A DNA stretch of 64,000 nucleotides from Squalus acanthias (taxonomy: Eukaryota). The notes below the pieces were generated by a model. That model was not told where the DNA came from, did not search any database, and saw only the letters and a program-made list of their open reading frames with translations. The stretch is from the NCBI GenBank assembly GCA_030390025.1, contig CM059431.1, positions 148,616,001 through 148,680,000 on the forward strand, read 5' to 3'. Position numbers and translations under genes: made by a program. Shown here in pieces: positions 17,850 through 58,600 of this stretch (the first letter of the stretch is position 1; the number at the start of each line of letters is the position of its first letter).

Positions 17850-20800
17850 TGCCCCACAGCAGCAGCAGTGCGGAGCTGGGGGGAGCGGCGAGGCGGCGGC
17901 GGCACCAACTCAGCACCGGCAGAATTTTCAAAGAGTGAAGTCAGAAGTCAAAAGTGACGTCGGCAAAAGGGGAGGGAGTTGATTGATGAGTATCTGCTAA
18001 GTGTTTTTATTTGACTTTCTTAAAGTTTTTTTAATTTATTCCAGCTAGGTTAGTAAATTAGAGGTTAATTCGAGGTATGGCAGTGCAGCTCACACCCGTG
18101 GAATGCACATCCTGTGCCATGTGGGGAGTCCTGGACAAACACCATTGTTCTGGACGACCACTTGTGCGGGTAGTGTCGCCAGATACAGCAGCTCGAGCAC
18201 CGGGTTACGGAGCTTGAGCGGCGGCTGCAGTCACTGCTGTGCCTCCGTGAGGCTGAGAGCTAACTGGATAGCACATCTCGGGAGGTGGTCACCCCGCAGT
18301 TTAAGAATTTGCAAGCAGAGAGGGAATGGGTGACAGTCAGACAGAAGTGGCGGACCAACCAGTTAGTGCAGGAATCCCCAGAGCCCATCTTGCTCACCAA
18401 CTAGTATTCAGTGCTGAGCACTGGTGAGGGCAATGGTTCATCTGGGGAGTGCAGCCAGAGCCAAGTCCACAGCACCATGGAAGGTTCAGCTGCACAGGCG
18501 GCGGGGGGGGGGGGGGGGATGTGGAAGAGGGGGAGGAAGAGGAGAGGGAGAGCAATTGTGATCGGGATTCAATATTTAGGGCAGCAGACAGGTGTTTCTG
18601 CGGCCGCAGGCGTTACTCTAGGATGGTATTTTGCCTCCATGGTTCCAGGGTCAAGCATGTCACTGAACGGCTGCAGTTCATTCTGAGGGGGGGAAGGTGA
18701 ACAGTCAGCGGTCACAGTCCATATCGGTACCAACGACATAGGTAGGAAGAGGGATGAGGTCTTGCAGGCAGGGTTTAGGGAGATAGGAAATAGTTTTAAA
18801 AGCAGTACCCCAAAGTTAGTAATCTCCGGATTATTACCAGTGACACGTGCTAGTGATTTCAGAAATGTGAAGATAAAGCAGATGAATGCGTGGCTGGAGA
18901 GATGGTGTAGGAGGGACGGCTTTAGATTCCTAAGGAAGTGGAACATTTTCTGGGGGAGGTGGGACCTCTAAAAGCCAGACGGGTTGCACCTCAACGGGAT
19001 CGGGACCAATATCCTCGCGGGAGGCTTTGCTAGTGCAGTTGGGGACTGTTTAATCTAGCTTGGCAGGGAGATGGGAACCTAATATAGAGTCAATAGGGAG
19101 GGAAGACAAACTGGAATTGGAAAACAGAAACGTAGAAAATAAATTTGAAGGACAGAGGAATCAAGAGCTAGATACTAGTGAACGAGGAGGTTTGCCTGTA
19201 CTAAATGATATGTACTTCAATGCAAGGACTATAGCGAACAGATGAGCTAAAGACACAGCTAGATACTTGGGACGATGATATTATAGCTATTAGAGAGACG
19301 TGGCTGAAAGAGGGTCTGGTATGGCAGCTCAACATTCCTGATTACAGGATTTTCAGACGGGATAGAGAGGAAGGTAAAATGGGACGGGGCGTGTGGTGGG
19401 TTTCGGGGGGTCGCGGTATATATTATAAAATATTACAGATGGAGGAGGGATGATAAGTTGGAGGGGTCATCAAACGAGGCCATATGGGTCGAATTGAAAA
19501 ACAAAAATGGGGGGTTTACACTGCTGGGAGTGTACGACAGACTCCCAAGCAGTGAGAGGGAGATAGAAGAAAAAAAATGTGGACAAATTTCTGAGAAGTT
19601 AAAAAAAATATAGGGCAGTAATAGTCGGGGATTTCAACTACCCCAATATTAACTGGGATAAAATTAGTGTGAAGGGTATGGAGAGTGCGGAATTCCTAAA
19701 ATCCATCCAGGAGAACTTTTTTAGCCTGTATGTAGCAAGCCCAATAAGGTATGGGGCGGTTCTGGACATTCATTAAGGGAATGAAGCTGGGCAGGTAGAA
19801 GATTTATCAGATGGGGGAGCATTTTGATGCTAGAGACCATAATTCTGTTAGATCTAAGGTAGTTATGGAAAAGGGCAAGGATAGACCAGGAATAAAAATT
19901 CTAAATTGGGGAAAAGCAAATTTTGCTAAGATCAGAGGGGATTTAGCCATAGTGGACTGGAAACAGCTAATTGAAGGTACATCAGTGACAGAGCAGTGGG
20001 AGGCATTCAAGGAGATCCGCAGGGTTCAGACCAAGCATGTGCCAATAAAGAAAAAAGATGGGACTAACAAATCTAGAGCCCCCTGGATGTCTCGAGACAT
20101 ATAGTGTAGGATAATGAAAAAAAGCAGGTGTATGACAGATACTGAGGGTTAAATGCTCCAGATTCTTTAGAGGAGTACAGAAAGTGCAGGGGTGCAATTG
20201 AAAATGATATTAGGGAAGCAAAGAGAGAGCATGAAAATTCTTGGCAAGTAAAATCAAGGAAAACCCAAAGATGTTTTATAAATATGTTAAGAGTAAGACG
20301 ATAACTAAAGAAAGGGTGGGGCCAATAGAGATCATGTGGGTAATCTGTGTCTGGAGGGGGGAGGCTTCGGTAGGCTTCTTAATGAATATTTTGCGTCTGT
20401 TTTCACAAAGGAGAGGGGCGAACAGACATTGCTATCGGGGGCGAGGGGAGGAGTGTGAAATATTAGATGAAATAAACATAGTGAGAGAGGAAGTATTAAA
20501 GGGTTTAGCAGCTTTAAAAGTGGATAAATCCCCAGGCCCGGATGAAATGAATACCAGGCTGTTCAGCGAAGCAAAAGAAGAAATAGCAGAGTCCCTGATA
20601 ATCGTTTTTCAATCCACTCTGTCCTCAGGTGTGGTGCCAGAGTACTGGAAGACTGCTAATGTGGTACCCTTGTTTAAAAAGGTTGAAAAGAATAGACCGA
20701 GTAATTACTGGCCAGTCAGCCTAACCTCGGTAGTGGGAACATTATTGGAAATAATTCTGAAGGACAGGATAAAACTTCATTTAGAAAGTCACGGATTAAT

Positions 20801-22078
20801 CAAGGAAATTCAGCACGGATTTGTCAAGGGAAGGTCGTGTCTGACAAATATGATTGAATATTTTGAGGAGGTAACATGGAGGGCAGATAAAGGTAGTGCG
20901 GTTGATGTACAGTCTATAGAATTTAGCAAGGTTTTTGATAAGTTTGCAAATGGCAGAACTGTCACGAAGTTAAAAGCCCATGGGATCCAGGGCCAACTGT
21001 CAAGTTGGATTCAAAACTGGCTCGGAGAGAGGAAGCAGAGGGTAATGGTTGATATGTGTTTTTGTGACTGGAAGGCTTTTTCCAGTGGGGTTCTGCAGGG
21101 TACAATACTAGGTCCCTTGCTTTTTTTGCTATATATCAACGATCTTGCCTTGAATATAGTGGTATGATTAAGAAGTATGTAGATGATACTAAAATCGGCT
21201 ATGTTTTTGATACTGAAGAAGGAAGCTGCAGAATGCAGGAAGATGTCAAAAAATTGGTCAGGTGGGCAGAACAGTGGCAAATGGAATTTAACCGGAGAAG
21301 TGTGAGGTAATGTTTTTGTGGAGGGCAATCAAGGAAAGGGAATACTCATTAAATGGTAGGACACTGATTAGTGTAGAGGAACAAAGGGACCTTGGAGTGC
21401 ATGTCCACAGATCCCTGAAGGTAGCAGGACAAGTACTTAAGGTGGTTAAGAGGGCATATCGAATGCTTGCTTTTATTAGCCGTGGAATAGAAAACAAGAG
21501 CAGCGGGGTTATGCACTAGTTAGGCCACAGCTAGAGGACTGCGTTCAGTTCTGGTGGCCACATTACTCGAAAGATGTGATTGCACTAGTGAGGGTACAGA
21601 GGAGATTTACAAGTTTGTTGCCGGGAGTGGAGAATTGGACATGAGGAAAGACTGGATGAGCTGGATTTGTTTTCCTTGGAACAGAGGAGGCAGAGAGGAG
21701 ACCAAATTGATGTGTATCAAATTATGAGGTGCCTAGATAAAGTGGATAGAAACGACCTATTTCCCTTAGCAGAGTGGTCCAAAATCAGGGGGCACACATT
21801 TAAAGTAATTGGGGGAAATTTTAGAGGGGATTTGAGGGGAAATTTCTTCACCCAGAGTGTTGTGTGGGTCTGGAACTCACTGCCTGATAGGGTGGTAGAG
21901 GCAGGAACCCTAATCACATTTAAAAAGTACTTGGATGTGCACTTGCGATGCTCTAACCTGCAGGGCTACGGATCAAGAGCTGGGAAGTGGGATTAGGCTG
22001 GATAGCTCTTTTTTGGCCGATGCCGACGCAATGGGTCGAAATAGCCTCCTTCCGTGCTGTAACTTTCTATGATTCTAG
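17850..22078 (+). mobile_element. Near full-length degenerate CR1 LINE: GC-rich 5' UTR, ORF1 (Cys Zn-finger plus SGNH esterase; ATG 18077), ORF2 (APE endonuclease plus RT), 3' UTR
   Basis: ECTSCAMW; GDS / HIGTNDIG / DGLHL esterase motifs; YFNAR, GDFNYP, DHNSV; KSPGPDE...NYWPVSLTS...QHGFVKGRSCLTN; tail tttctatgattcta; many stops and frameshifts. Confidence 0.92.
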
Positions 22079-22144: not shown

Positions 22145-25100
22145 CAAATTAAAAAGCAGCACCACAAGGATAATAATCTCTGGAATACTACTTCAGCCAT
22201 AGCGTCCTGGCGAATTGAATAACTAGGGCTGTAGCTGGGGCTTTAAACTAAACATATGGAGAGGGGTCAGATGAGGGGAAATTTACAAATCCAAAGAGAA
22301 AGGTCATGGCAATAGACCAGTGTAGCGACTTGGGTAAAAATAAGCAGAGTGTGACAGGAAAGGACAGATAGTTTAATGGTAGCAGTGGAGCAGAGAATAA
22401 AGTCACAGCAGGGAATAATGTTAAAAAAAATATTTAATTGCTCTTTATCTGAATGCATGAAGCATTGGTGACAAGATAGACGAACTAATGGCAGAAATAG
22501 CGATAAATGGGTTTGATCTAATAGCCATTACAGAGACATTGTTGCTAAGTGGCCAAGGTTGGGAACTAAATATTCCAGGGCACTTGACGTTTCGAAAAGA
22601 TAGGCAGAATGGAAAAGGAGTCAGAGTAGTCCTAATAATAAAGGATGACATAAGGACAGTAGCGAGAAAGGATCTCGGCTCGGAAGATCAGGAAGTAGAA
22701 TCAGTATTGGTGCAGAAAACATGGTAGGAGTAGTATATAGGCCCCCTAACTGTATCTAAACAGTTGGAAAGAATATTAATCAAGAAATAACAGGAGCTTG
22801 CAACAAAGGTATTACAATAACTTTGGGGGACTTTATTCTTCATATAGACTGGACAAATCAAATTAGCAAATGTAGCCTGGAGGATCATGGATGGCATTCG
22901 GAACAGTTTCCTAAAACAAAATGTCATGGAACCAATCAGGGAACAGGCTATTTTAGAACTTGTATTGTGTAACGAGAAAGGGTTAATTAGCAATCATAAT
23001 AGTAAAGGATCCTCTGGGGCAGAGTTTTCATCATATAATAGATTTTTACATTAATTTTGAGAGTGTCTTGCCTAAGTCCGCTACTAGAGTCTTAATCCTA
23101 AATAAGGCCAATTAAGTAGGTATGAGGGGCGATTTGGATAAGGTATATTGGATAAGTAGATTAAAAGGTATGGCGGTAAATAAGCAGTGGCTAGCATTTA
23201 AAGAAATATTTCATAATTCTCAAAACTACATTCCATTCTGAAACAAAAACTACACTGGAAAAGTGATCCAACCTTGGTTAACTACACAAGTGAAGGATAG
23301 TATTAGATTTAAAGAAGAAACTTATAGTGTTGCAAATAATAATAATAAGCCTGAGGACTGGGGGAGTATCAGAAACCAGCAAATGATGACTAAAAAATTG
23401 ATTAAAAGGGAAAAAAATAGACAATGCGGGAAAACTAGCAAGACATATAAAAGCAGATTGATAGAGTTTCTGCAAGTATGTGAAAAGGAAAGGAGTAGCA
23501 AATGTAAACGTTACTACGTTAGAGGCTGAGACAGGATAAATTAGTATGGAGAATAAGGAAATGGCAGGAACGTTAAACAAATATTTTGTATTTGTCTTCA
23601 CAGTAGAAGTCACAAAAAGAATACCAAAAATGGTGGGGAAACACGTTTCTAATCAGGGTGAGGAACTTAATGTAATTAATATAAGTAGGGTAAAAGTGCT
23701 AGAGAAACTTATGGGACTAAAAGTCGGCAAATCCCCTGGACCTGACGGCCTACACCCCAGGGTTCGAAAAGAGGTGGCTGAAGAGATAGGGGAAGCATTG
23801 GTTTTGATCTTCCAAAATTCCCTAGATTCTGGAAAAGTCCCAGCGGATTGGATGGTCGCAAATGTAACAACGCTACTCAAGAAAAAATGGACAGAAAAAA
23901 CAGGGAACTACAGGCCAGTTAGCCTGACATCAGACGTCGGAAAAATGCTGGAATCCATTGTTAAGGAAGTGGCATCAAGTCACTTAGAAAATCATGAAAA
24001 GATTAGGCTGAGTCAACATGGTTTTATGAAAGGGGAATCGTGTTTGAAAAATGTATTAGTTTTGTTTGGGGATGTAACTAGCAGGGTAGATAAAGGGGAA
24101 CCAGTGGATGTAGTATGTTTCGATTTCCAAAAGACAATCGATAAGGTGCCACATAAAATATTATTACACAAGATTAGGGCTCATAGGGTTCGGGCCAATA
24201 TAATAGCATGGATAGATGATTGGTTATGGGACAGAATACAGAGAGTAGAGATAAATGGATATTTTTCAGGTTGACAAGCTATAACTAGGGAAGTGCCACA
24301 AGGATTAGTGTTGGGGCCTCAGCTATTTACAATCATATTAATGACCTAGATGAAGGGACCGAGAGAAATGTATCCAAATTTGCTGATGATGAAAAGCTAG
24401 GTGGGACAGTAATTTGTGACGAGAACACAATGAGTCTGCAGAGGTATATAGATAGGCTAAGAGATTGGGCAGTAAGGTGGAAGATGGATTATAATGTAGG
24501 GAAAGGTGAGGTAATTCACTTTTTTTGGAAGAATAGGAAAAATAGAATATTTTTAAATGGTGAGAACCTTTCAAAAGTTGCTGTTCAGAGAGATTTGGGT
24601 GGGTGTCCTCGTTCAAGGAACACAGAAAGCTAGCATGCAGGTACAGCAAGCAATAAGGGTGGCAAACGGCATGTTGGCCTTTATTTTAAGGAAGTTGGAG
24701 TATAAGAGTAAGGGAGTCTTGCGACAATTGGGCAAGGCCTTGGTGAGACCATACCTGGAGTACTGTGCACAGTTTTGGTCTCCTTATCTAAGGAAGGATA
24801 TACTTGCATTGAAGATGTTGCAACAAAGGTTCACTGGATTGATTCCTGGGGTGAGAGGGTTGTCCTATGAAGAGAGATTGTGTAGAATGGGCCTATACGC
24901 TCTGGAGTTTAGAAGAATGAGCGATGATCTCATTGAAACATACAAGATTCTGAAGGTGTTTGACAGGATAGATGCTGAGTGGCTGTTTCCCCTGGTTGGA
25001 GTGTCCTGAACTAGGGGGGCATACTCTCAGGTTAAGGGGTAGGCCATTCAAGACTGAGTTGAGGAGGAATTTCTTCACTCAGAGAGTTGGGAATCTTTCG

Positions 25101-30846: not shown

Positions 30847-33527
30847 TTGCATCTTTGTTGATGCAAGAGTTGTTTAAAAAGACTGGCACATCCTCGCTAC
30901 TGTTGGTGTCCCTGGTAAGTCTCTGTATCCCGCTATGAATTCTATAAATCATGTTTATCTGTATTTCTCTCCTTGTCATTCTCCATCCCATGCGCACTGC
31001 TGTCGGCTATTGATTCTGAAGGTGATACGGTATTACCAAGATTCAATTGTTGTATAAGCAACTCAAGAAAAAATATTGCACGAGACTCTTTGCTTAACGA
31101 ATTTCGTTCTGCTATCTACACTGAACATTTGTAACAGATCAGAAGAATGTTGTCTTGGTTGAGGAGACTTTTCACTGAATGGCGAAAGGTCATCGACCTG
31201 AAACGATAACTCTCTCTCTCTCCACAGATGCTGCCTGACCTGCTGAGCATTTAAAACATTTCCTGCTCTATTTTCGATTTCCAGCATCCTCAGTAATTTG
31301 CTTTAGTTTTCAACGAATGGTCGGTATGGTTGCTCACACAGATTCACAGGAACAAATCCTGACAGATCACAAACTGATCTATAAATGTCTGAAATATCCG
31401 CGAATCATTGAGTTCCAGTAAGTGTCTCGTTTGCTCCCATCTCCAGTTCGTTCTACATTAGTGATACTGCTTCTGATGGTAAGAATAGGATTACACGGAT
31501 AATTTAAATTCTCGAAAAACGTTCAGTCAGCCATATTTCAATGCGTTTATTACCAATTTTGTTTTGAATTTACAAGTGTGTCCCGTGCCTGTCTGTCACA
31601 GTTCAGTGGATCTCTCAGTGAGAACCAGAGTGATTCTCTATTGCCTCCTGCTGTACTGCAGGATAATCAATCCCAGCTGATTGTAACTGAAGTACTGAGG
31701 ATAAGAAAATCATTTCATATTTTCTCGACTAATATTCTCTGCACAATTTGGAAACCAACAGGTGAAAAATACAAGGAAAAATCTCTTCCATTTGTGTTCA
31801 GATACTTTACGAAAGCCTTCGGAGGCTCGTTGACTGTGGGATGAGGCGCTTGATTACGATGCTAATACATGCATTTAGTGGGATATTACCTGGTCAATGA
31901 TAACTATATATTTTAATTCAGAATCCATTCCTTGCAATGTTATTTGTAAAATCTTCCGTTCAATGAGCCACAATTTGAGCCTTTCAACAAAACTATAGAA
32001 AGCTCAATCTTCAAAACATTTCTTGCAGCCCAGTTATCTTTATAACTACAGTGCCATTGTATTAATTATCTTAGCGCTTGCATATTACAGTCGTGCATTT
32101 TAAATATAATTGCCTGTAATTATTGCACACCAAGATTGCAGTTACTGTATTTTGCCGTTACATTTATTTTCAGTGCTAAATATAATGGATATTCTAACCA
32201 GGAGCAGGAATCCAAGCGGGATTTCCCCGTCCCTAACACAGGGGAAGGGAAGCGAATTGCACCGCTCCAAATGCTGACTGATCCCGGGAGACGAAGGCTT
32301 CCTCCGAGGTTCTGGTCCTTTGGGTCACTGGTACTTCGGGTGGTGCTTCTGTCTGGTGGGCTGAAGGTAGATCTACCATGTTATCTCTCATTAATCAAAC
32401 ATCTGTTACTTTCATGTTGTATTTATCCCCGTTTCATTTCTTAATTCCACAATACATTTCCGATTATTCTTACAATAAACCCTGTATTCAACTACACGGG
32501 CAATAGAATTAGATTATATCATTGAATGTCGCTGATGAGTTGCAGATTTCTCCCAGAGTTCCTTATATCTGCTGCTCTTGCTCCCAGCCTGATGTATAAT
32601 TTCCCTGTTTATTTCCCTTCCTCACAGTGAACTTAGTTACGATTGTGATCCTGTCTCGGGGAAAGTGCGGTCTCTCCAAATGTGTCACTCGCTACCTTGT
32701 GGCCATGGTAGCGGCGGATCTACTGGTCCTTCTCCTCGATCTGATATTGAGCCAGATTCCGATTGTATTTAGGGAACAGTTTCGTTTCCTGGAGTCCATC
32801 CCCGTGTGTAATATCCACGCCGTCCTGCTTTATGCAGCCACAGACTGTTCTGTCTGGTTCTGCGTCACTTTCACTTTTGATCGATTAGTGGCCATTTGTC
32901 GCCAGAAGCTGAAAACTAAATATTGCACCGAGAATGCGGCGGCTGTGGTTCTGGGAACAGTCACTGTGCTAAGCGGTTCAAAGGACATTTTCTGGTATTT
33001 TATGTTCACAGATCGGTTTCCGCTTGCGAACCTCCCCTGGTTTTGTGAGGTGACAATGGATGTTGTGTATTCATGGGTCTGGGGGACATCGAGCTCCTTC
33101 ATTATATTCTCACCCGGGGGTCACATTTATCGTGATTCTGCTGCTCAATGCTCTCACCGTCAGACACATTTTATTGTCCAGCAGAGCCCGCAGTAGACTC
33201 CGGGGTCCCAGCAGTAGGGAGAGTCCCAAAGACCCAGAGATGGAGAGCAGCAGGAAATCCATCATTTTACTGCTTGTTATCTCCGGCAATTTCATCCTGT
33301 TGTGGGCAGTGCTTATGATGTATTATATATGGATCCGGATGAGGGATTTGGGGTCTAAATCTGTTTATGCACCTTTTTATGTAAGGGAATTGGGATTGAT
33401 GTTGCAGATGCTGAGTTGCTGCACAAACACTGGGATTTATGCCGTGACACAGACTAAATTCAGAGAGCAGTTAAAGAATGTGGGGAAATGTCCCTTCACT
33501 CTTATTGTAAAATTCATTAAAGGATGA
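30847..33527 (+). pseudogene. Two-exon GPR139/GPR142-like 7TM GPCR pseudogene (exon 1 remnant to 30914; intron 30915-32627; exon 2 32628-33527)
   Basis: HILATVGVP-G|gtaagt ... ttcctcacag|TG AAC gives VP-V-NLVTIVILSRGKCGLSKCVTRYLVAM; TM3 FTFDRLVAIC; TM7 LSCCTNTGIY; in-frame TAA in exon 1 and two 1-bp deletions near 33088 and 33113. Confidence 0.88.
31179..31310 (+). mobile_element. Short Penelope-type terminal repeat remnant with decayed hammerhead motif (intronic)
   Basis: atggcga-a-aggtc-atc-gacct-gaaacg then ccacagatgctgcctgacctgctgag...atttccagcatc; related piece at 40498-40635. Confidence 0.6.
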
Positions 33528-41713: not shown

Positions 41714-42161
41714 ATGGAAGCAAAAAGCACCGCTCTCAGTGTGCAGAAACCGTGCACGTGTTTTGTGTTTGAACGAGGATTCAGCCGACCCACTGACCTG
41801 TCGAGACACAAGTGCAGTCACACTGGAGAGAGTCCGTTCAACTGCTCCGTTTGTAGGAATGGATTCACTCAGTCACCCACCCTGCTGACACACCAGCGGG
41901 TTCACACTGGTGAGCGGCCGTTCAGCTGCTCCGTGTGTGGGAAGGGATTCACTCAGTCACCCACACTGCTGACACACCAGCGGGTTCACACTGGAGAGGC
42001 CGTTCACCTTCTCCGTGTGCGGAAATGGATTCACTCAGTCATACAACTTGCTGAGACCCTAGCGAGTTCACACTGGGGAGAGGCCGTTCACCTATTCTGA
42101 ATGTGGGGAGGGGTTAATTTCTACATGCAGCCAGCTAACACAACAGCGAGTACACAACTGA
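41714..42161 (+). pseudogene. C2H2 zinc-finger pseudogene (~5 fingers, 2 intact)
   Basis: [27 protein letters not shown] repeats; finger 1 lacks 2nd Cys; frameshift at ~41995, stop at ~42060; acceptor ttttacag at 41604; AATAAA at 42307. Confidence 0.88.
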
Positions 42162-43837: not shown

Positions 43838-44150
43838 ACTGTTGAGGGAGCCTTACCCTGAATCTAACTCGTGCTATGCCTGCCCCGGGTGTATTTGATG
43901 GGACAGTGCAGACGGAGCAGTAATATAGAGAGACACCAGCAGAGGGGGCAGGGAGAGGTATTTAACTGAGTGAGCAGTGATACATAGAGACAACATCAGA
44001 GGGAAATAGATCAAGTTGAGACTGGGCACTGTGATACAGAGAGACCCCAGCAGAGGGAGATAGATAAAGGTGAGACTGAGTGCTGTGCTACGGAGATATA
44101 ATTGAGAGGTCGCACAACACCAGGTTATAGTCCAACAGTTTTATTTGAAA

Positions 44151-44188
44151 TCACAAGCTTTCGGAGCTATCGCTCCTTCCTCAGGTGA
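44151..44188 (-). ncRNA. Minimal type I hammerhead ribozyme (3' pseudo-LTR)
   Basis: RNA UCAC-CUGAGGA-A-GGAGC-GAUA-GCUCC-GAA-AGCU-U-GUGA: CUGAnGA/GAA core, 5-bp stem II, palindromic AGCU stem III, UCAC/GUGA stem I. Confidence 0.85.
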
Positions 44189-44520
44189 AGTAAATTGGAT
44201 ACAGAATCGCCAGAGCATATATAGATGGAAAAAAAAGCATGTGTACTTTACAATTGCAGACCAATAAATTAAATCATCCTGACTATCTGCCGAGGTGTGA
44301 TAAAGTTAATTAAGTCAGCCAGGAAGGTACCACATCAAAAGACATAGCAAGATACAACTGAGACAATGAGGTGTAGTCGCAGGGGTTCCAACGTGTCAAA
44401 AGCTGCCGCCTGTATGTAAAACGAAAAGCTTTAAAAAAAATTACTTTTTTACTGGGAAAATTTTTACTTTTTTACTGGGAATCACATCTGTGAACAAGCT
44501 AACGACGACTTGAGTCCGGA

Positions 44521-47199
44521 TCACGTCATGTATCGTGACATAAACCCAAGATCCCGATTGAGACCGTCTTCATGAGTGCGGAACTTGGCTATCAGTTTCT
44601 GCTCGATGATTTTGCGTTGTCGTGTGTTTCTAAGGTTGCCTTGGAGAACGCTTACCCGCAGATCCGAGGCTGAATGTCCTTGACTGCTGAAGTGTTCTCC
44701 GACTGGGAGGTAACAATCCTGCCTGGCGATTGTTGCGCGGTGCTCGTTCATACGTTGTCTCAGTGTCTGCATGGTCTCGCCGATGTACCATGCCGCGGTG
44801 CATTCTTTCCTGCAACGTATGAGGTAGACAACGTTGGCCGAGTCACATGAGTATGTACCATGTACCTGGTGGGTAGTGTCCTCACGTGTGATGGTGGTAT
44901 CTGTGTTGATGATCTGGCATGTCTTGCAGAGTTTGCCATGGCAGGGTTGTGTGGTGTCGTGGTCGCTGTTATCCTGAAAGCTGGGTAATTTGCTGCGAAC
45001 GATGGTACTTCTGAGGTTAGGCGGCTGTTTGAAGGCAAGTAGTGGAGGCGTGGGGATGGCCTTAGCGAGGTGTTTGTCGTCATCGATGACATGTTGAAGG
45101 CTGCGAAGAACATGTCGTAGTTTCTCCGCTCCGGGGAAGTACTGGACGACGTAGGGTACCCTGTTGGTTGTGTCCCGTGTTTGCCTTCTGAGGAGGTCTA
45201 TGCGATTTTTCGCTGTGGCCCGTCGGAACTGTCGATCGATGAGTCGAGCGTCATATCCCGTTCTTACGAGGGCGTTTTTCAGCGTCCGTAGGTGTCCATC
45301 GCGTTCCTCCTCGTCTGAGCAGATCCTGTGTATTCGCAGGGCTTGTCCATAGGGGATGGCTTCTTTAACATGGTTAGGGTGGAAGCTGGAGAAGTGGAGC
45401 ATCGTGAGGTTGTCCGTGGGCTTGCGGTAGAGTGAAGTGCTGAGGTGTCCGTCTTTGATGGAGATTCGTGTGTCCAGGAATGAGACCGATTCTGAGGAGT
45501 AGTCCATGGTGAGTTTGATGGTGGGATGGAACTTGTTTATGTTATCGTGTAGTCTTTTCAGTGATCCTTCGCCATGGGTCCAAAGGAAGAAAATGTCGTC
45601 GATGTATCTGGTGTACAGCGTTGGCTGGAGGTCCTGTGCAGCGAAGAAGTCTTGCTCGAACTTGTGCATGAAGATGTTGGCGTATTGGGGTGCGAATTTG
45701 GTCCCCATGGCTGTTCCGTGTGTTTGGGTAAAAAAATGGTTGTCGAAGGTGAAGACATTGTGGTCAAGGATGAAGCGGATGAGTTGTAGGATGGCGTCTG
45801 GAGATTGGCTGTTGTTGATGTTGAGTACTGAGGCTGTTGCAGCGATGCCGTCATCGTGGGGGATACTGGAGTAGAGTGCCGATACGTCCATCGTGGCAAG
45901 GAGTGTTCCTGGTTCAACTGGTCCGTGGGTGCTGAGTTTCTGTAAGAAGTCTGTAGTGTCGCGACAGAAGCTGGGGGTTCCCTGTACGATGGGTTTCAGA
46001 ATGCCCTCGACGTATCCAGAGAGGTTCTCACACAGGGTTCCATTGCCTGATACGATAGGACGTCCGGGTGTGTTGGCTTTGTGTATCTTTGGGAGGCAGT
46101 AGAAGTCTCCCACGCGGGGAGTACGTGGGATGAGAGCGCGTAGGATGTTTTGAAGGTCTGGATCGAAGGTCTTGATCAGTCTATTGAGTTGGCGGGTGTG
46201 TTCTTTGGTCGGATCTGCGGGTAGCTGTCTGTAGTGTTCCTGGTTGTCCAGTTGTCGGTATGCTTCTTTACAATAGTCCGTTCTGTTCTGTATGACGATG
46301 GCTCCTCCTTTGTCCGCTGGTTTGATGACAATGTTGCGGTTGGTCTTGAGAGCGTGGATGGCGTTGCGTTGTGCTCGGGTGACATTCTGGACTGTCTTGT
46401 GAGTGCGGCTGATGAATCTGGCGTTGATGCATTTCCTGACAGCTTGAGCATACATGTCAAGCTTGGGGCAGCGACCCTCCGGAGGGGTCCAGTTTGACTC
46501 TTTTTTCTTCGGTTGCTGCACTGCGAGTCCCTCTGTCTGCTGTTCTGGATCATTGATTGTCTCATTGGGTTTGTTGCTGACATCTTGGGATTTGTGGAAG
46601 TATTCCCGGAGCCTCATTCTCCTGATGAATTCCTCCGTGTCTGCCGCGAGACCGATGGGGTCCATTTTGGTGGTTGGGCAGAACTTGAGCCCTAGGGCGA
46701 GAACTTCGATTTCGTCTGGTTGAAGGGTATGGTCGGACAAGTTGACGATGGACTTCCCTGTGGTTGCAGCCGTGGTACCGGGGGAGGCTTGGTTGCTGCT
46801 GGTGGTGATGCCGAGTTTCTCAAGCTTCCTGTTCTTGATGCGCATGTAGGCAGCGTAGTTCCGTTGCCTCGTCTGTTTGGTGGTGTCTCGTAACTGGTCT
46901 GCTGTGTCCTGAGCACAGGCTGAGAGCATGGACTCTATCTTGGTTTCGAGGTTGTGGCGTTTGCTGTAGAGCTGGTGTACGAGATGGTTGAGGAGTGTGC
47001 GAGAGGTACGACGGCAGAGTCTCTCAGCGTAGTCTGTGTTGTATGTCGACTTGAGTGGGTTCGTGATCTGTAGTCCTTTCGGGATCTTGTCTGCTTTCTT
47101 GCATCTCTGTAGATACTTGATGTCGGTGTCGATATGCGCGATCTTCTTGGCGATTCTCTCCACTTTGAGCCGGCAGTTTGTGGTGTCGATAGTGGTCAT
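44521..47199 (-). CDS. Penelope-like reverse transcriptase plus GIY-YIG endonuclease (892 aa from first ATG; open frame extends to 47271)
   Basis: IKPADKGGA, FYCLPKIHK..PGRPIVS, MDVSALY, GTAMGTKFAP, RYIDDIF, FLD, YRKPT; C-terminal C..C..C, VVYLIRC...YIGET...RMNEH...EHF; no stops. Confidence 0.96.
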   Translation of the reverse strand: MTTIDTTNCRLKVERIAKKIAHIDTDIKYLQRCKKADKIPKGLQITNPLKSTYNTDYAERLCRRTSRTLLNHLVHQLYSKRHNLETKIESMLSACAQDTADQLRDTTKQTRQRNYAAYMRIKNRKLEKLGITTSSNQASPGTTAATTGKSIVNLSDHTLQPDEIEVLALGLKFCPTTKMDPIGLAADTEEFIRRMRLREYFHKSQDVSNKPNETINDPEQQTEGLAVQQPKKKESNWTPPEGRCPKLDMYAQAVRKCINARFISRTHKTVQNVTRAQRNAIHALKTNRNIVIKPADKGGAIVIQNRTDYCKEAYRQLDNQEHYRQLPADPTKEHTRQLNRLIKTFDPDLQNILRALIPRTPRVGDFYCLPKIHKANTPGRPIVSGNGTLCENLSGYVEGILKPIVQGTPSFCRDTTDFLQKLSTHGPVEPGTLLATMDVSALYSSIPHDDGIAATASVLNINNSQSPDAILQLIRFILDHNVFTFDNHFFTQTHGTAMGTKFAPQYANIFMHKFEQDFFAAQDLQPTLYTRYIDDIFFLWTHGEGSLKRLHDNINKFHPTIKLTMDYSSESVSFLDTRISIKDGHLSTSLYRKPTDNLTMLHFSSFHPNHVKEAIPYGQALRIHRICSDEEERDGHLRTLKNALVRTGYDARLIDRQFRRATAKNRIDLLRRQTRDTTNRVPYVVQYFPGAEKLRHVLRSLQHVIDDDKHLAKAIPTPPLLAFKQPPNLRSTIVRSKLPSFQDNSDHDTTQPCHGKLCKTCQIINTDTTITREDTTHQVHGTYSCDSANVVYLIRCRKECTAAWYIGETMQTLRQRMNEHRATIARQDCYLPVGEHFSSQGHSASDLRVSVLQGNLRNTRQRKIIEQKLIAKFRTHEDGLNRDLGFMSRYMT

Positions 47200-47286
47200 G
47201 ATGCGGAGATGCCGGTGTTGGACTGGGGTGGACAAAATTGAGAGGTCGCACAACACCAGGTTATAGTCCAACAGTTTTATTTGAAA

Positions 47287-47324
47287 TCACAAGCTTTCGG
47301 AGCTATCGCTCCTTCCTCAGGTGA
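47287..47324 (-). ncRNA. Minimal type I hammerhead ribozyme (5' pseudo-LTR)
   Basis: Identical to 44151-44188. Confidence 0.85.
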
Positions 47325-47925
47325 AGTAAATTGGATACAGAATCGCCAGAGCATATATAGATGGAAAAAAAAGCATGTGTACTTTACAATTGCAGACCAA
47401 TAAATTAAATCATCCTGACTATCTGCCGAGGTGTGATAAAGTTAATTAAGTCAGCCAGGAAGGTACCACATCAAAAGACATAGCAAGATACAACTGAGAC
47501 AATGAGGTGTAGTCGCAGGGGTTCCAACGTGTCAAAAGCTGCCGTCTGTATGTAAAACGAAAAGCTTTAAAAAAAAATTACTTTTTTACTGGGAAAATTT
47601 TTACTTTTTTACTGGGAATCACATCTGTGAACAAGCTAACGACGACTTGAGTCCGGATCACGTCATGTATCGTGACATAAACCCAAGATCCCGATTGAGA
47701 CCGTCTTCATGAGTGCGGAACTTGGCTATCAGTTTCTGCTCGATGATTTTGCGTTGTCGTGTGTTTCTAAGGTTGCCTTGGAGAACGCTTACCCGCAAAT
47801 CCGAGGCTGAATGTCCTTGACTGCTGAAGTGTTCCCCGACTGGGAGGTATACAGAGATATACCAGCAGAGGGAGATAGAGATAGGTGAAACTGAGCACTG
47901 TGAAACAGAAAGACACCAGCAGAGA

Positions 47926-55611: not shown

Positions 55612-58600
55612 CTGTACCAGTCGTTTCCATTGGCTGGAGTGTCTCGAACTGGGGCACATAGTCTCAAAATAAGGTGTAGGCCATTTAAGACACAGCTTAG
55701 GAGGAATTTCATAAGAGAGAGTAGATACATAGATACATAGAACAGTACAGCACAGTACAGGCCCTTCGGCACTCGATGTTGTGCCGAGCATTGTCCGAGA
55801 CCAAGATCAAGCTATCACACTCCCTATCACTCTGGTGTGCTCATGTGCTTGTCCAATAACCGCTTGAAAGTTCCTAAAGTGTCCGACTCCACTATCACAG
55901 CAGGCAGTCCATTCCACACCCCAACCACTCTCTGAGTAAAGAATCTACCTCGGACATCCCTTCTATATCTCCCCCCATGCACCTTATAGTTATGCCCCCT
56001 TGTAACAGCTGCCTCTACCCGAGGAAATAGTCTCTGAACATCAACTCTATCTATCCCCCTCATCATCTTATAAACCTCTATTAAGTCGCCTCTCATCCTC
56101 CTCCGCTCTAAAGAGAAAAGCCCCAACTCCCTCAATCTTTCCTCATAAGACCTCCCCCCCAAACCAGGCAGCATCCTGGTAAATCTCCTTTACACTCTTT
56201 CAAATGCTTCCACGTCCTTCCTATAGTGAGGTGACCAGAACTGCACACAATATTCCAAATGTGGTCTCACCAAGGTCCTGTACAGTTGCAGCATAACCTC
56301 ACGGTTCTTAAACTCAAACCCTCTGTTAATAAACGCCAACACACCATAGGCCTTCTTTACTGCTCTATCCACTTGAGTGGCAAACTTCAGAGATCTGTGG
56401 ATATGAACCCCCAGATCCCTCTGCTCCTCCACGTTCCTCAGAACCCTGCCGTTGACCCTGTAATCCTTATTCAAATTTGCCCTACCAAAATGAATCACCT
56501 CGCACTTATCAGGGTTAAATTCCATCTGCCATTTTTCGGCCCAGCTCTGCATCCTATCACTGTCTCTTTGCAGCCTACAACTGCCCTCCACCTCATCCAC
56601 TACTCCACCAATCTTGGTGTCATCAGCAAATTTACTGATCCACCCTTCAGTCCCCTCCTCCAAGTCATTGATAAAAATCACAAACAGCAGAGGACCCAGC
56701 ACCGACCCCTGTGGCACACCGCTGGTAACTGGTCTCCAGTCCGAAAATGTTCCACCCACCACCACCCTCTGCCTTCTAAGAGATAGCCAGTTACTTATCC
56801 AATCGGCCAAATTTCCCTCTATCCCACAACTCCTTACTTTCTTCATGAGCCGACATGGTGAACCTTATCAAACGCCTTACTAAAATCCATGTATACGACA
56901 TCAACTGCTCTACCTTCATCTACACACTTAGTTACCTCCTCAAAGAATTCAATCAAATTTGTTAGGCAAGACTTACCCTTCACGAATCCGTGTTGACTAT
57001 CCCTGATTAAGTTGCCCCTTTCCAAATGGTCATAAATCCTATCCCTCAGGACCTTTTCCATTATCTTACCAACCACCGAAGTAAGACTAACCGGTCTATA
57101 ATTACCAGGGTCATTCCTATTTCCTTTCTTGAAGAGAGGAACAACATTCGCCACTCACCAGTCCTCTGGCACCATCCCCGTGGACAGTGAGGACCCAAAG
57201 ATCAAAGCCAGATGCTCTGCAATCTCCTCCCTTGCCTCCCAAAGAATCCTAGGATATATCCCATATGGCCCAGGGGACTTATCGACCCTCAGGTTCTTCA
57301 AAATTGCTAAAACATCTTCCCTCAGAACATCTACCACCTCCAGCCTATCCACCTTTATCACACTCTCATCCTCAAGAACATGGCCCCTCTCCTCGGTGAA
57401 CACTGACGAAAAGTATTCATTCATCACCTCTCCTATCTCTTCTGACTCCATGCACAAGTTCCCACTACTGTCCTTGACCGGCCCTACCCTCACCCTGGTC
57501 ATTCTTTTATTTCTCACATAAGAGTAAAAAGCCTTGGTGTTTTTCTTGATCCGACCCGCCAAGGACTTCTCATGCCCCCTCCTAGCTCTCCTAAGCTCTT
57601 TTTTTAGCTCATTCCTTGCTAACTTGTACCCCTCAATCGACCAAACTGAACCTTGTTTTCTCATCCTTACATACGCTTCCTTTTTCCTCTTGACTAGACA
57701 TTCAACCTCTTTTGTGAACCATGGTTCTCTCACTTGGCCATTTCCTCCCTGCCTGACAGGGACATAACTATCAAGGACACGCAGTAATAGCTCCATGAAA
57801 AAGCTCCACTTTTCCTTTGTGCCTTTCCCTGATAGTTTCTGTTCCCATCTTATACTCCCTAATTCTTGCCTAATCGCATCATAATTACCCCTCCCCCAAT
57901 TATAAACCCTGCCCTGCCGTATGGCCCTATCCCTCTCCATTGCAATAGTGAAAGTTACCGAATTGTGGTCACTATCTCCAAAGTGCTCTCCCACATACAA
58001 ATCAAACACTTGGCCCGGTTCATTACCCAGTACCAAATCCAACGTGGCCCCAGCTCTTGTCGGCCTATCCACATATTGTGTCAGGAAACCCTCCTGCACA
58101 CACTGTGCAAAAACTATCCCATCCGAACTGTTTGACCTATAAAGGTTCCAATCAATATTTGGAAAGTTGAAGTCACCCATGACAACTACTCTGTGACCTC
58201 CACACCTATTCATAATCTGCTTTGCAATTTCTTCCTCCACATCTTTATTACTATTTGGGGGCCTGTAGAAAACTCCTAACAACGTGACCGCTCCTTTCCT
58301 ATTTCTAACTTCAGCCCATATTACCTCAGACGGCAGATCCCCCTCGAACTGCCTTTCTGCCGCTGTTAAACTATCCTTGATTAACAATGCTACTCCTCCA
58401 CCTTTCTTACCAACTTCCCTACTCTTACTGAGTTATGTGAACATTTTGAATTCTCTGCCCCAGAAGGCTGTGAATGCTGAGTTTTGAGTTAGATGGATTG
58501 TTGGTCTCTAGGGGAAACAAGAGAATTGCTGATCGGGCGGGAATGTGGAGTTGAGATGTATGAACAGCCATGTTCTCATTGAATGGCGGTGCAGTCTCGA

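What the first reader, a model, noticed from the sequence alone, without database searches (positions are those of the whole stretch)
44151..47324. Paired minimal hammerhead ribozymes bracket the ORF and could excise a unit-length (~3136 nt) RNA
Seen: identical CUGAGGA...GAA cores with perfect GGAGC/GCUCC stem II, palindromic AGCU in place of a stable stem III, predicted CUU cleavage triplets (cuts at 47291/47290 and 44155/44154) and AATAAA just downstream. Known: PLE pseudo-LTRs carry minimal type I hammerheads proposed to cleave as dimers. Inference: the two copies could pair in cis to release, and perhaps circularise, a monomer containing the whole ORF. The upstream cut lies ~90 nt before the ATG, implying an uncapped message.
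Basis: partly seen in the sequence, partly recalled or inferred. Interest (0 to 1): 0.72.

Follow-up and report, generated by a model that had tools for sequence, protein, structure and literature searches.

The report
Shark Penelope hammerheads likely make circles
The two small self-cutting-RNA motifs are real and of a known kind, sitting in the end repeats of a young, intact Penelope-type jumping gene, and the ends of its many genomic copies suggest that long copies were likely made from a cut-and-rejoined RNA circle, a published but still unproven idea.

Summary
Observation confirmed. Two identical minimal type I hammerheads (cores at 47320 and 44184, minus strand; predicted cuts 3136 nt apart) lie in the 614-nt pseudo-LTRs of an intact 892-aa Neptune/Nematis-type Penelope-like element, likely of a shark. 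The genome holds 3,339 exact copies. The dimer-cut-circle idea is the 2014 model of Cervera and De la Pena, and this scan reached it before on other DNA of this genome (e1-7807315). What I add comes from copy ends. None of 100 sampled copies begins at the cut. 3' ends sit about 55 or 91 nt past it. Short copies pile up 36-37 nt before the cut (14 of 92), at a TATA/Inr-like start. After a full round that stop nearly vanishes (2 of 108, p=0.0005). So stubs likely come from an uncut, probably capped RNA, and long copies from a template with no end there, most simply a circle. 'Uncapped message' is not supported. Cis pairing is untested. Junction reads cannot prove circles, because the junction is identical to genomic sequence. 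No usable RNA data. Known kind, but a good test system.

The parts
44100..47849 (-). Whole insertion: partial-tandem Penelope-like element (559 nt + 3136-nt unit + 55 nt)
47236..47849 (-). Upstream pseudo-LTR (5'-truncated second round of the unit), 614 nt
   Evidence: 99.3% identical to the downstream repeat
44100..44712 (-). Downstream pseudo-LTR (ORF end, 3' UTR, hammerhead, 55 nt past the cut)
44521..47199 (-). Intact 892-aa ORF: RT (YIDD at 532), CX4CxxC linker (753-761), C-terminal GIY-YIG-type endonuclease with two Cys between the motifs
47287..47324 (-). Upstream minimal type I hammerhead; predicted cut 47291|47290
44151..44188 (-). Downstream minimal type I hammerhead; predicted cut 44155|44154
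44155..47290 (-). Predicted cut-to-cut monomer or circle, 3136 nt (inferred, not observed as RNA)
   Evidence: 35 of 36 such units measure 3100-3147 nt
47352..47359 (-). TATA-like box, 32 nt before the inferred start (second copy at 44216-44223)
   Evidence: spacing to the core 37-41 nt in 51 of 85 copies with a full hammerhead
47323..47329 (-). Initiator-like motif; inferred transcription start at 47327, 37 nt before the cut (second copy at 44191)
   Evidence: pile-up of 5' ends at -36/-37; Inr consensus YYANWYY recalled
47276..47281 (-). AATAAA in the upstream repeat
44140..44145 (-). AATAAA in the downstream repeat (candidate poly(A) signal, untested)
47200..47235 (-). 36-nt 'tail' between the two preferred 3' ends (about +55 and +91), the likely two RT start sites
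   Evidence: compare PMC11167929
47850..47860 (-). Target-site duplication, left copy (11 nt, one mismatch)
44089..44099 (-). Target-site duplication, right copy

Best explanation
This is a young, intact Penelope-like retroelement whose two end repeats each carry a minimal hammerhead; its RNA likely starts capped 37 nt before the first cut site, and a minority of molecules is predicted to be cut at both hammerheads and rejoined into a 3136-nt circle that would template the long, more-than-unit genomic copies. Shown: the anatomy, fold-preserving variation of the hammerhead, two fixed 3' ends about 55 and 91 nt past the cut, intact cut sites in all sampled copies, and a 5' stop at -36/-37 in short copies that is nearly absent after a full round. 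Inferred: transcription from the TATA/Inr-like site. Inferred: the element's RT starts inside the 5' leader at +55 or +91. On uncut linear RNA it runs off at -37 and leaves 90-130-nt stubs. On a circle it crosses the rejoined site, copies the 3' UTR and ORF, and runs on into a second round, which rebuilds the upstream pseudo-LTR and its promoter. Untested: cleavage itself, cis versus trans pairing, help from the ORF protein, and ligation (a host RtcB-type ligase, by analogy with retrozymes).
For: 0 of 100 position-ordered copies of the post-cut segment begin at the cut (95% upper bound 3%). 1 of 101 hammerhead copies ends near it. First-pass stop at -36/-37 in 14 of 92 terminal copies (13 of 71 insertions), 7.6% per nt against 0.7% per nt just upstream. 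The same stop occurs in at most 2 of 108 ORF-start-bearing copies (Fisher p=0.0005), while four control windows do not differ (p=0.12-0.68). No two uncensored copies among those 108 share a 5' flank, so there is no sign of host read-through. Upstream repeats range from 39 nt to several units. The two repeats of one element usually match each other as well as or better than the nearest other element: 18 better, 15 equal, 3 worse, of 36. Across 18 recurring variants stems I and II stay 98.8% paired, with 2 pairs showing compensatory change. In 225 copies GAAA and the AGCT palindrome are kept in 224, N7 varies freely and H17 is only U or C. The model is published as a proposal (PMC4209133). Related retrozyme RNAs do circularise, mainly through RtcB (PMC7229834 passages).
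Against: No RNA end, cut or circle was observed. In the anole Poseidon element no RNA-seq reads ended at the cut, hammerhead mutants did not affect insertion in vitro, and uncut RNA was the main substrate (PMC11167929). Naiad PLEs form the same tandems without canonical hammerheads (PMC8557442 passages). Minimal PLE hammerheads cleave poorly even as dimers. The double hammerhead is not favoured over two monomers in the energy model, and with flanks stem I is not in the MFE fold. The window element is itself one of the 3 units whose repeats differ more from each other (3 sites) than from the nearest other element (2), though its 3 discordant alleles are absent from the other 35 units. In the longest array one variant is shared by two units but not the third, which one pass round one circle does not explain. 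16 of 225 copies carry U4C in the core. The loss of the -37 stop could also reflect a more processive RT late in synthesis. Copies are related and not independent; the first half of the core was required by my filter.
Confidence: 0.5

Rival explanations
1. No cleavage needed. RT starts in the leader of the uncut capped RNA, reaches the 5' end at -37, and jumps to the matching repeat at the RNA's 3' end, like retroviral strong-stop transfer; repeated jumps give tandems.
For: The start at -37 and AATAAA at +10 would give a terminal redundancy made almost only of the hammerhead. Stubs starting at -37 exist. Uncut RNA was the main substrate for the anole element. Hammerhead-less Naiads also form tandems.
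Against: Each round would meet the same 5' end, yet the stop falls from 14 of 92 to at most 2 of 108 after a full round. It does not explain why the catalytic fold is kept across subfamilies.
Confidence: 0.2
2. Long copies come from uncut linear read-through RNA of multi-unit arrays or host transcripts; arrays are regrown by DNA-level duplication.
For: Arrays with 2 or more consecutive full units exist at 3 loci (L106, L109+110, L117+118). One variant is shared by two adjacent units. This is the scenario of PMC11167929.
Against: RNA from the element's own promoter would give full-length copies starting at -37, which are at most 2 of 108. Host read-through would give shared 5' flanks, and none were seen. 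Linear copying can only shorten the upstream repeat.
Confidence: 0.15
3. The hammerheads cut, but for another purpose: removing the cap or poly(A) tail to switch the RNA out of translation, or promoting cap-independent translation. Pairing may be in trans between two RNAs.
For: Fold conservation implies selection. 5'-UTR self-cleavage can drive cap-independent translation in fungi and plants (PMC13725137, abstract only). There is no ATG between the cut and the ORF start.
Against: No genomic copy starts at the cut (0 of 100), though a cut linear RNA still holds both RT start sites. A promoter-like start lies upstream of the cut.
Confidence: 0.1
4. The hammerheads are inert passengers; the conserved sequence serves as promoter or protein-binding site.
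For: The motif overlaps the inferred start site. U4C variants spread. PMC8557442 raises that hammerheads may parasitise PLEs.
Against: Variation follows the hammerhead rules: free N7 and loop II, paired stems, H17 never G.
Confidence: 0.05

Closest known systems
Minimal hammerheads (min-HHR) in pLTRs of metazoan PLEs, including fish Xena, Poseidon and Neptune (Cervera and De la Pena 2014, PMC4209133; parts 1-2 of 4 read)
   Same: Type I topology, short helix I (4 bp), no helix III with palindromic 15/16 positions, an extra nucleotide between 9 and 10.1, G10.1-C11.1 pair, two copies about 3 kb apart around the ORF, thousands of dispersed single copies. The paper proposes dimer cleavage, ligation to circles and more-than-unit reverse transcription.
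   Different: Helix II is 5 bp here, not the 7-8 bp of the Schistosoma motifs. The parts I read do not analyse copy ends or a start site at the hammerhead's edge.
Poseidon from Anolis carolinensis, PAc (Frangieh et al. 2024, PMC11167929; parts 1-2 of 4 read)
   Same: Two internal RT start sites that define a 30-40-nt tail; both target strands primed (here 23 of 25 head-to-head pairs have one long and one short tail); AT-rich targets.
   Different: In PAc the hammerhead overlaps the start codon and the RT starts lie 111-118 nt inside the ORF. Here cut and both starts lie in the 5' leader. This ORF has the CX2-5CxxC linker that Penelope/Poseidon lack.
EN+ PLE clades Neptune and Nematis (Craig et al. 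2021, PMC8557442; Introduction and passages read)
   Same: RT followed by a C-terminal GIY-YIG endonuclease, linker Zn finger, pLTRs, inverted 5'-truncated copies, optional tail.
   Different: No tree was built, so Neptune versus Nematis is not settled.
Metazoan non-LTR retrozymes (PMC7229834, passages; bioRxiv 10.64898/2026.07.22.740005, part 1 of 5)
   Same: Tandem type I hammerheads; in retrozymes double cleavage and RtcB ligation give circles.
   Different: Retrozymes are 170-400-nt non-coding units with canonical hammerheads and demonstrated circles. This is a 3.1-kb coding unit with minimal hammerheads and no demonstrated circle.
Drosophila virilis Penelope promoter (Schostak et al. 2008, PMC2377424; passages read)
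   Same: The transcript starts inside the upstream pseudo-LTR; a 34-37-bp tail; pLTR regeneration is stated there to have no obvious mechanism.
   Different: No leader intron is evident here (not tested with RNA), and a TATA-like box is present.

Membership tests
EN+ Penelope-like element | Single ORF with RT and C-terminal GIY-YIG endonuclease with Cys pair between the motifs | tested here: met
   RVT_1 E=1.5e-8; VVYLIRC, CRKEC, YIG, RMNEH, GLN. Pfam gave no GIY-YIG hit for this protein; more distant homologues carry PF01541 (family name recalled).
EN+ Penelope-like element | Partial-tandem pseudo-LTRs, inverted copies, 30-40-nt tail, TSD | tested here: met
Neptune/Nematis clades | CX2-5CxxC linker between RT and EN | tested here: met
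   CHGKLCKTC at 753-761; definition
Neptune clade specifically | RT phylogeny | not tested
   no named reference sequences were at hand
Minimal type I hammerhead of PLEs | Core CUGANGA...GAAA...UH with stems I and II | tested here: met
   Rfam models do not detect it
Minimal type I hammerhead of PLEs | Extra nucleotide 9/10.1, G10.1-C11.1, palindromic 15/16 positions | tested here: met
   extra A in 225 of 225 and AGCT in 224 of 225 copies; first G-C pair of stem II in 18 of 18 variants
Minimal type I hammerhead of PLEs | Self-cleavage as a dimer | not testable with these tools
   only an energy estimate: -24.9 vs -25.8 kcal/mol
Ribozyme-generated circular RNA (retrozyme-like) | Covalently closed unit-length RNA in cells | tested here: inconclusive
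   only assembled contigs of runs of guessed type; indirect support from copy ends
Non-LTR retrozyme | Short non-coding tandem unit | tested here: not met
   3136-nt unit with an intact ORF

The most novel reading that the evidence does not exclude
An autonomous vertebrate retrotransposon runs on two RNA templates from one promoter: an uncut capped mRNA, which leaves the 90-130-nt stubs, and a 3.1-kb protein-coding circle made by its two hammerheads (perhaps brought together by its own dimeric protein), on which the RT rolls to rebuild the pseudo-LTR. The loss of the -37 stop after one full round would be genomic evidence for the circular intermediate proposed in 2014.
Probability: 0.4. Interest if true: 0.65.

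Novelty: new member of a known kind. Interest (0 to 1): 0.32.

Why it matters
How PLEs rebuild their pseudo-LTRs and what their hammerheads do are both stated as open in the papers read (PMC2377424, PMC8557442), and the one in vitro study found the ribozyme dispensable (PMC11167929). This family is very young: 26 of 36 sampled units have an ORF of 880 aa or more, and about 1,500 places are candidates for an ORF-start copy (first-look count, a rough figure). It also has natural allele markers in stem II. It is therefore a good system in which to test the circle model, and the first-pass versus second-pass comparison can be repeated in any genome with a young PLE family. The motif and the hypothesis themselves are not new.

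Tried and rejected
Rfam search: no hammerhead model matched. PDB sequence search: no hit. Sequencing runs: no RNA holder on record; 23 runs listed, and those I laid are contigs of guessed type. Laying 4 of them on the element and 4 on the downstream hammerhead (6 distinct runs in all) showed no pile-up of ends, no poly(A) loose end among the rows shown, and depth that cannot be read as expression; this is neither for nor against. The first genome search was biased towards copies ending like the window's, so end counts use position-ordered samples instead. A shared upstream-T/downstream-C difference at +43 in two elements first looked like inheritance from a linear template. The site is a CpG, and 8 of 10 inverted stub pairs with that T have it in one arm only, so I rejected it as recurrent decay. 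Its genome-wide frequency among ORF-start copies was not measured. Private variants shared by both repeats (28, against 32 in one repeat only) are weak evidence, as 15 come from one divergent locus. A non-templated G at the -37 junction (a cap trace) was not evident: 3 of 8 such junctions, read by eye. Lunse et al. on dimer cleavage was not held; I saw only its title in a reference list. Searches for Penelope + shark + Neptune + retrotransposon (0 papers), for strong-stop or template-switch models of PLEs and for circular PLE intermediates listed nothing showing a full-length PLE circle; listings only were seen, and subscription papers are missing. No supplements were read; those of PMC4209133 may hold closely related fish or shark motifs.
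Full report
Observation. On the minus strand each reads stem I 5' arm UCAC, core CUGAGGA, one extra A, stem II GGAGC/GAUA/GCUCC, GAA, AGCU, U, then GUGA. Core C3 is at 47320 and 44184, cuts after CUU fall at 47291|47290 and 44155|44154, the unit is 3136 nt, and 91 nt separate the first cut from the ATG. AATAAA starts at 47281 and 44145. A descriptor finds 2 sites in the window and at most 1 in any of 200 shuffles. Rfam has no matching model. The two are copies inside a 614-nt direct repeat with 3 substitutions and 1 indel.

What carries them. [quoted passage not shown] An 11-nt target duplication with one mismatch bounds the insertion. The best of 652 homologues listed are shark proteins at up to 92-94% identity over part of the length, so the host is likely a shark. 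By the definitions in PMC8557442 this is an EN+ Penelope-like element of the Neptune/Nematis type; I built no tree. The family is young and abundant: 3,339 exact hammerhead matches, control 0. In the loci fetched plus the window I found 36 hammerhead-to-hammerhead units; 35 measure 3100-3147 nt and 26 have an ORF of 880 aa or more. Three loci hold two or more consecutive full units.

Is the ribozyme under selection? Among 18 variants seen at least twice, stems I and II are 98.8% paired, and two pairs change on both sides (4 of 500 shuffles reach the pairing value; the structure was derived from these related sequences, so this is not a probability). In 225 copies with their native 5' context, GAAA and AGCT are kept in 224 and the extra A in all; N7 takes all four bases and H17 is U or C. 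My filter required the first half of the core, and 16 copies have U4C. The computed double hammerhead (-24.9 kcal/mol) is not more stable than two monomers (-25.8), and with flanks the MFE fold lacks stem I. Cleavage would therefore likely need help, as found for the anole element, whose hammerhead cut only with protein.

Copy ends. I took the first 100 exact matches along contig C1, which gave 101 copies at up to 2 mismatches. Their 3' ends lie at +48 to +69 (59) or +80 to +106 (34); 4 run into the ORF; 3 scored +23 to +28 (two of these scored +57 and +102 with a different cut-off); 1 ends at +5. These two ends are the PLE 'tail', which PMC11167929 ties to two internal RT start sites. In 23 of 25 head-to-head pairs one arm is long and one short. 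A second sample, anchored just downstream of the cut, showed that 0 of 100 copies begin at the cut: 85 have the whole hammerhead upstream, 14 a truncated or inverted one, and 1, flagged by the script, still has AGCTC before the cut at an inverted junction. Of 42 ORF starts inspected, 3 begin 15-31 nt past the cut and none at it. So all sampled DNA copies were made from RNA that was intact, or rejoined, at the cut.

The start site. 5' ends pile up 36-37 nt before the cut: 14 of 92 terminal copies that reach that point, from 13 of 71 insertions, 7.6% per nt against 0.7% per nt over the next 27 nt. In the second sample 10 of 34 TATA-less copies match to the same position. That base (47327) is the A of an initiator-like motif, 32 nt below a TATA-like box whose spacing is kept across subfamilies (consensus recalled). 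D. virilis Penelope also starts inside the upstream pLTR, and a rotifer Penelope has a TATA/Inr pair there. Earlier notes of this scan gave me this lead (e1-10284256, e1-9990874), and I tested it here. The primary RNA is thus likely a capped transcript that begins at the hammerhead, and 'uncapped message' does not follow. It is not excluded either: PMC13725137 (abstract only) reports cap-independent translation after 5'-UTR self-cleavage in fungi and plants.

The discriminating test. If every template were linear and RT jumped at its 5' end, or if full-length copies came from uncut RNA read from the element's own promoter, the -37 stop should reappear after a full round. From 120 loci I kept 108 distinct ORF-start-bearing copies that span the upstream cut; duplicates and copies not spanning the cut were dropped. 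Four control windows further upstream do not differ (p=0.12-0.68), and no uncensored pair shares a 5' flank. Long copies therefore likely come from a template with no end at -37. A cut-to-cut circle is the simplest such template. Caveats: copies are related, arms of inverted pairs are not independent, the second-pass set mixes subfamilies, and late synthesis may be more processive.

Repeat identity. The two repeats of one element match each other better than the nearest other element in 18 of 36 units, equally in 15 and worse in 3, the window among them (3 differences against 2). The window's 3 discordant alleles are absent from the other 35 units, and it has 1 private allele in both repeats. 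This fits copying twice from one template but also fits a self-jump. One array has a variant in two of three units, which a single rolling pass does not explain. A shared discordance at +43 proved to be CpG decay.

RNA. No run on record as RNA holds the element, and the runs laid are contigs, which cannot show ends. The circle junction would be identical to genomic sequence over 254 + 55 nt, so junction reads prove nothing.

Comparison and verdict. PMC4209133 describes these motifs in fish Neptune, Poseidon and Xena pLTRs and proposes dimer cleavage, ligation to circles and more-than-unit reverse transcription; a 2019 review repeats it. Against it stand PMC11167929 (ribozyme dispensable in vitro, no reads at the cut) and hammerhead-less Naiads. 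My searches listed no demonstration of a full-length PLE circle. The scan's own earlier report on other DNA of this genome reached the same leaning (e1-7807315); that is not independent support. The finding is a new member of a known kind with a published, unproven mechanism. I put the two-template, circle-for-long-copies model at 0.5, strand transfer at 0.2, linear multimers at 0.15, another role for cleavage at 0.1, and inert at 0.05. Interest 0.32.

Noticed in passing
L061-L090, L147-L193 (G000:C1): 23 of 25 head-to-head inverted pairs have one long (+84 to +106) and one short (+50 to +60) tail, as if each target strand were primed at a different RT start site.
   Followed up: partly
window 47256-47283 and genome-wide: The 28 nt just past the cut occur 46,936 times exactly in G000, against 3,339 for this subfamily's hammerhead; many subfamilies with different stem II loops share this leader.
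   Followed up: partly
L093, L094, L099 and relatives: Subfamilies with U4C in the catalytic core (16 of 225 copies), one sampled unit (L093) with an intact ORF; their cleavage activity is unknown.
   Followed up: no
L109+L110 (G000:C2:211.21-211.22 Mb): Array of three full units plus a 3'-most unit lacking unit positions 1202-2806; one variant is shared by two units only.
   Followed up: partly
L096:7208-7635: A 428-nt insert in the last codons of the ORF, similar to a repeat that is common in the window.
   Followed up: no
window 43980-44099 and 47850-47924: The element sits inside a short array of about 54-nt imperfect repeats.
   Followed up: no
window 41714-42136 (+): C2H2 zinc-finger-like ORF fragment with 84-nt repeats; the family name is recalled from the HTGE linker.
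   Followed up: no
window 32705-33527 (+): Two overlapping ORFs that read like a frameshifted G-protein-coupled receptor gene (judged by eye).
   Followed up: no
window 20271-21167, 23546-25009, 55827-58213: Decayed CR1/L2-type LINE ORF2 fragments (judged by eye).
   Followed up: no
window 44458-44483: A short direct duplication of about 22 nt in the 3' UTR, present in both pseudo-LTRs.
   Followed up: no
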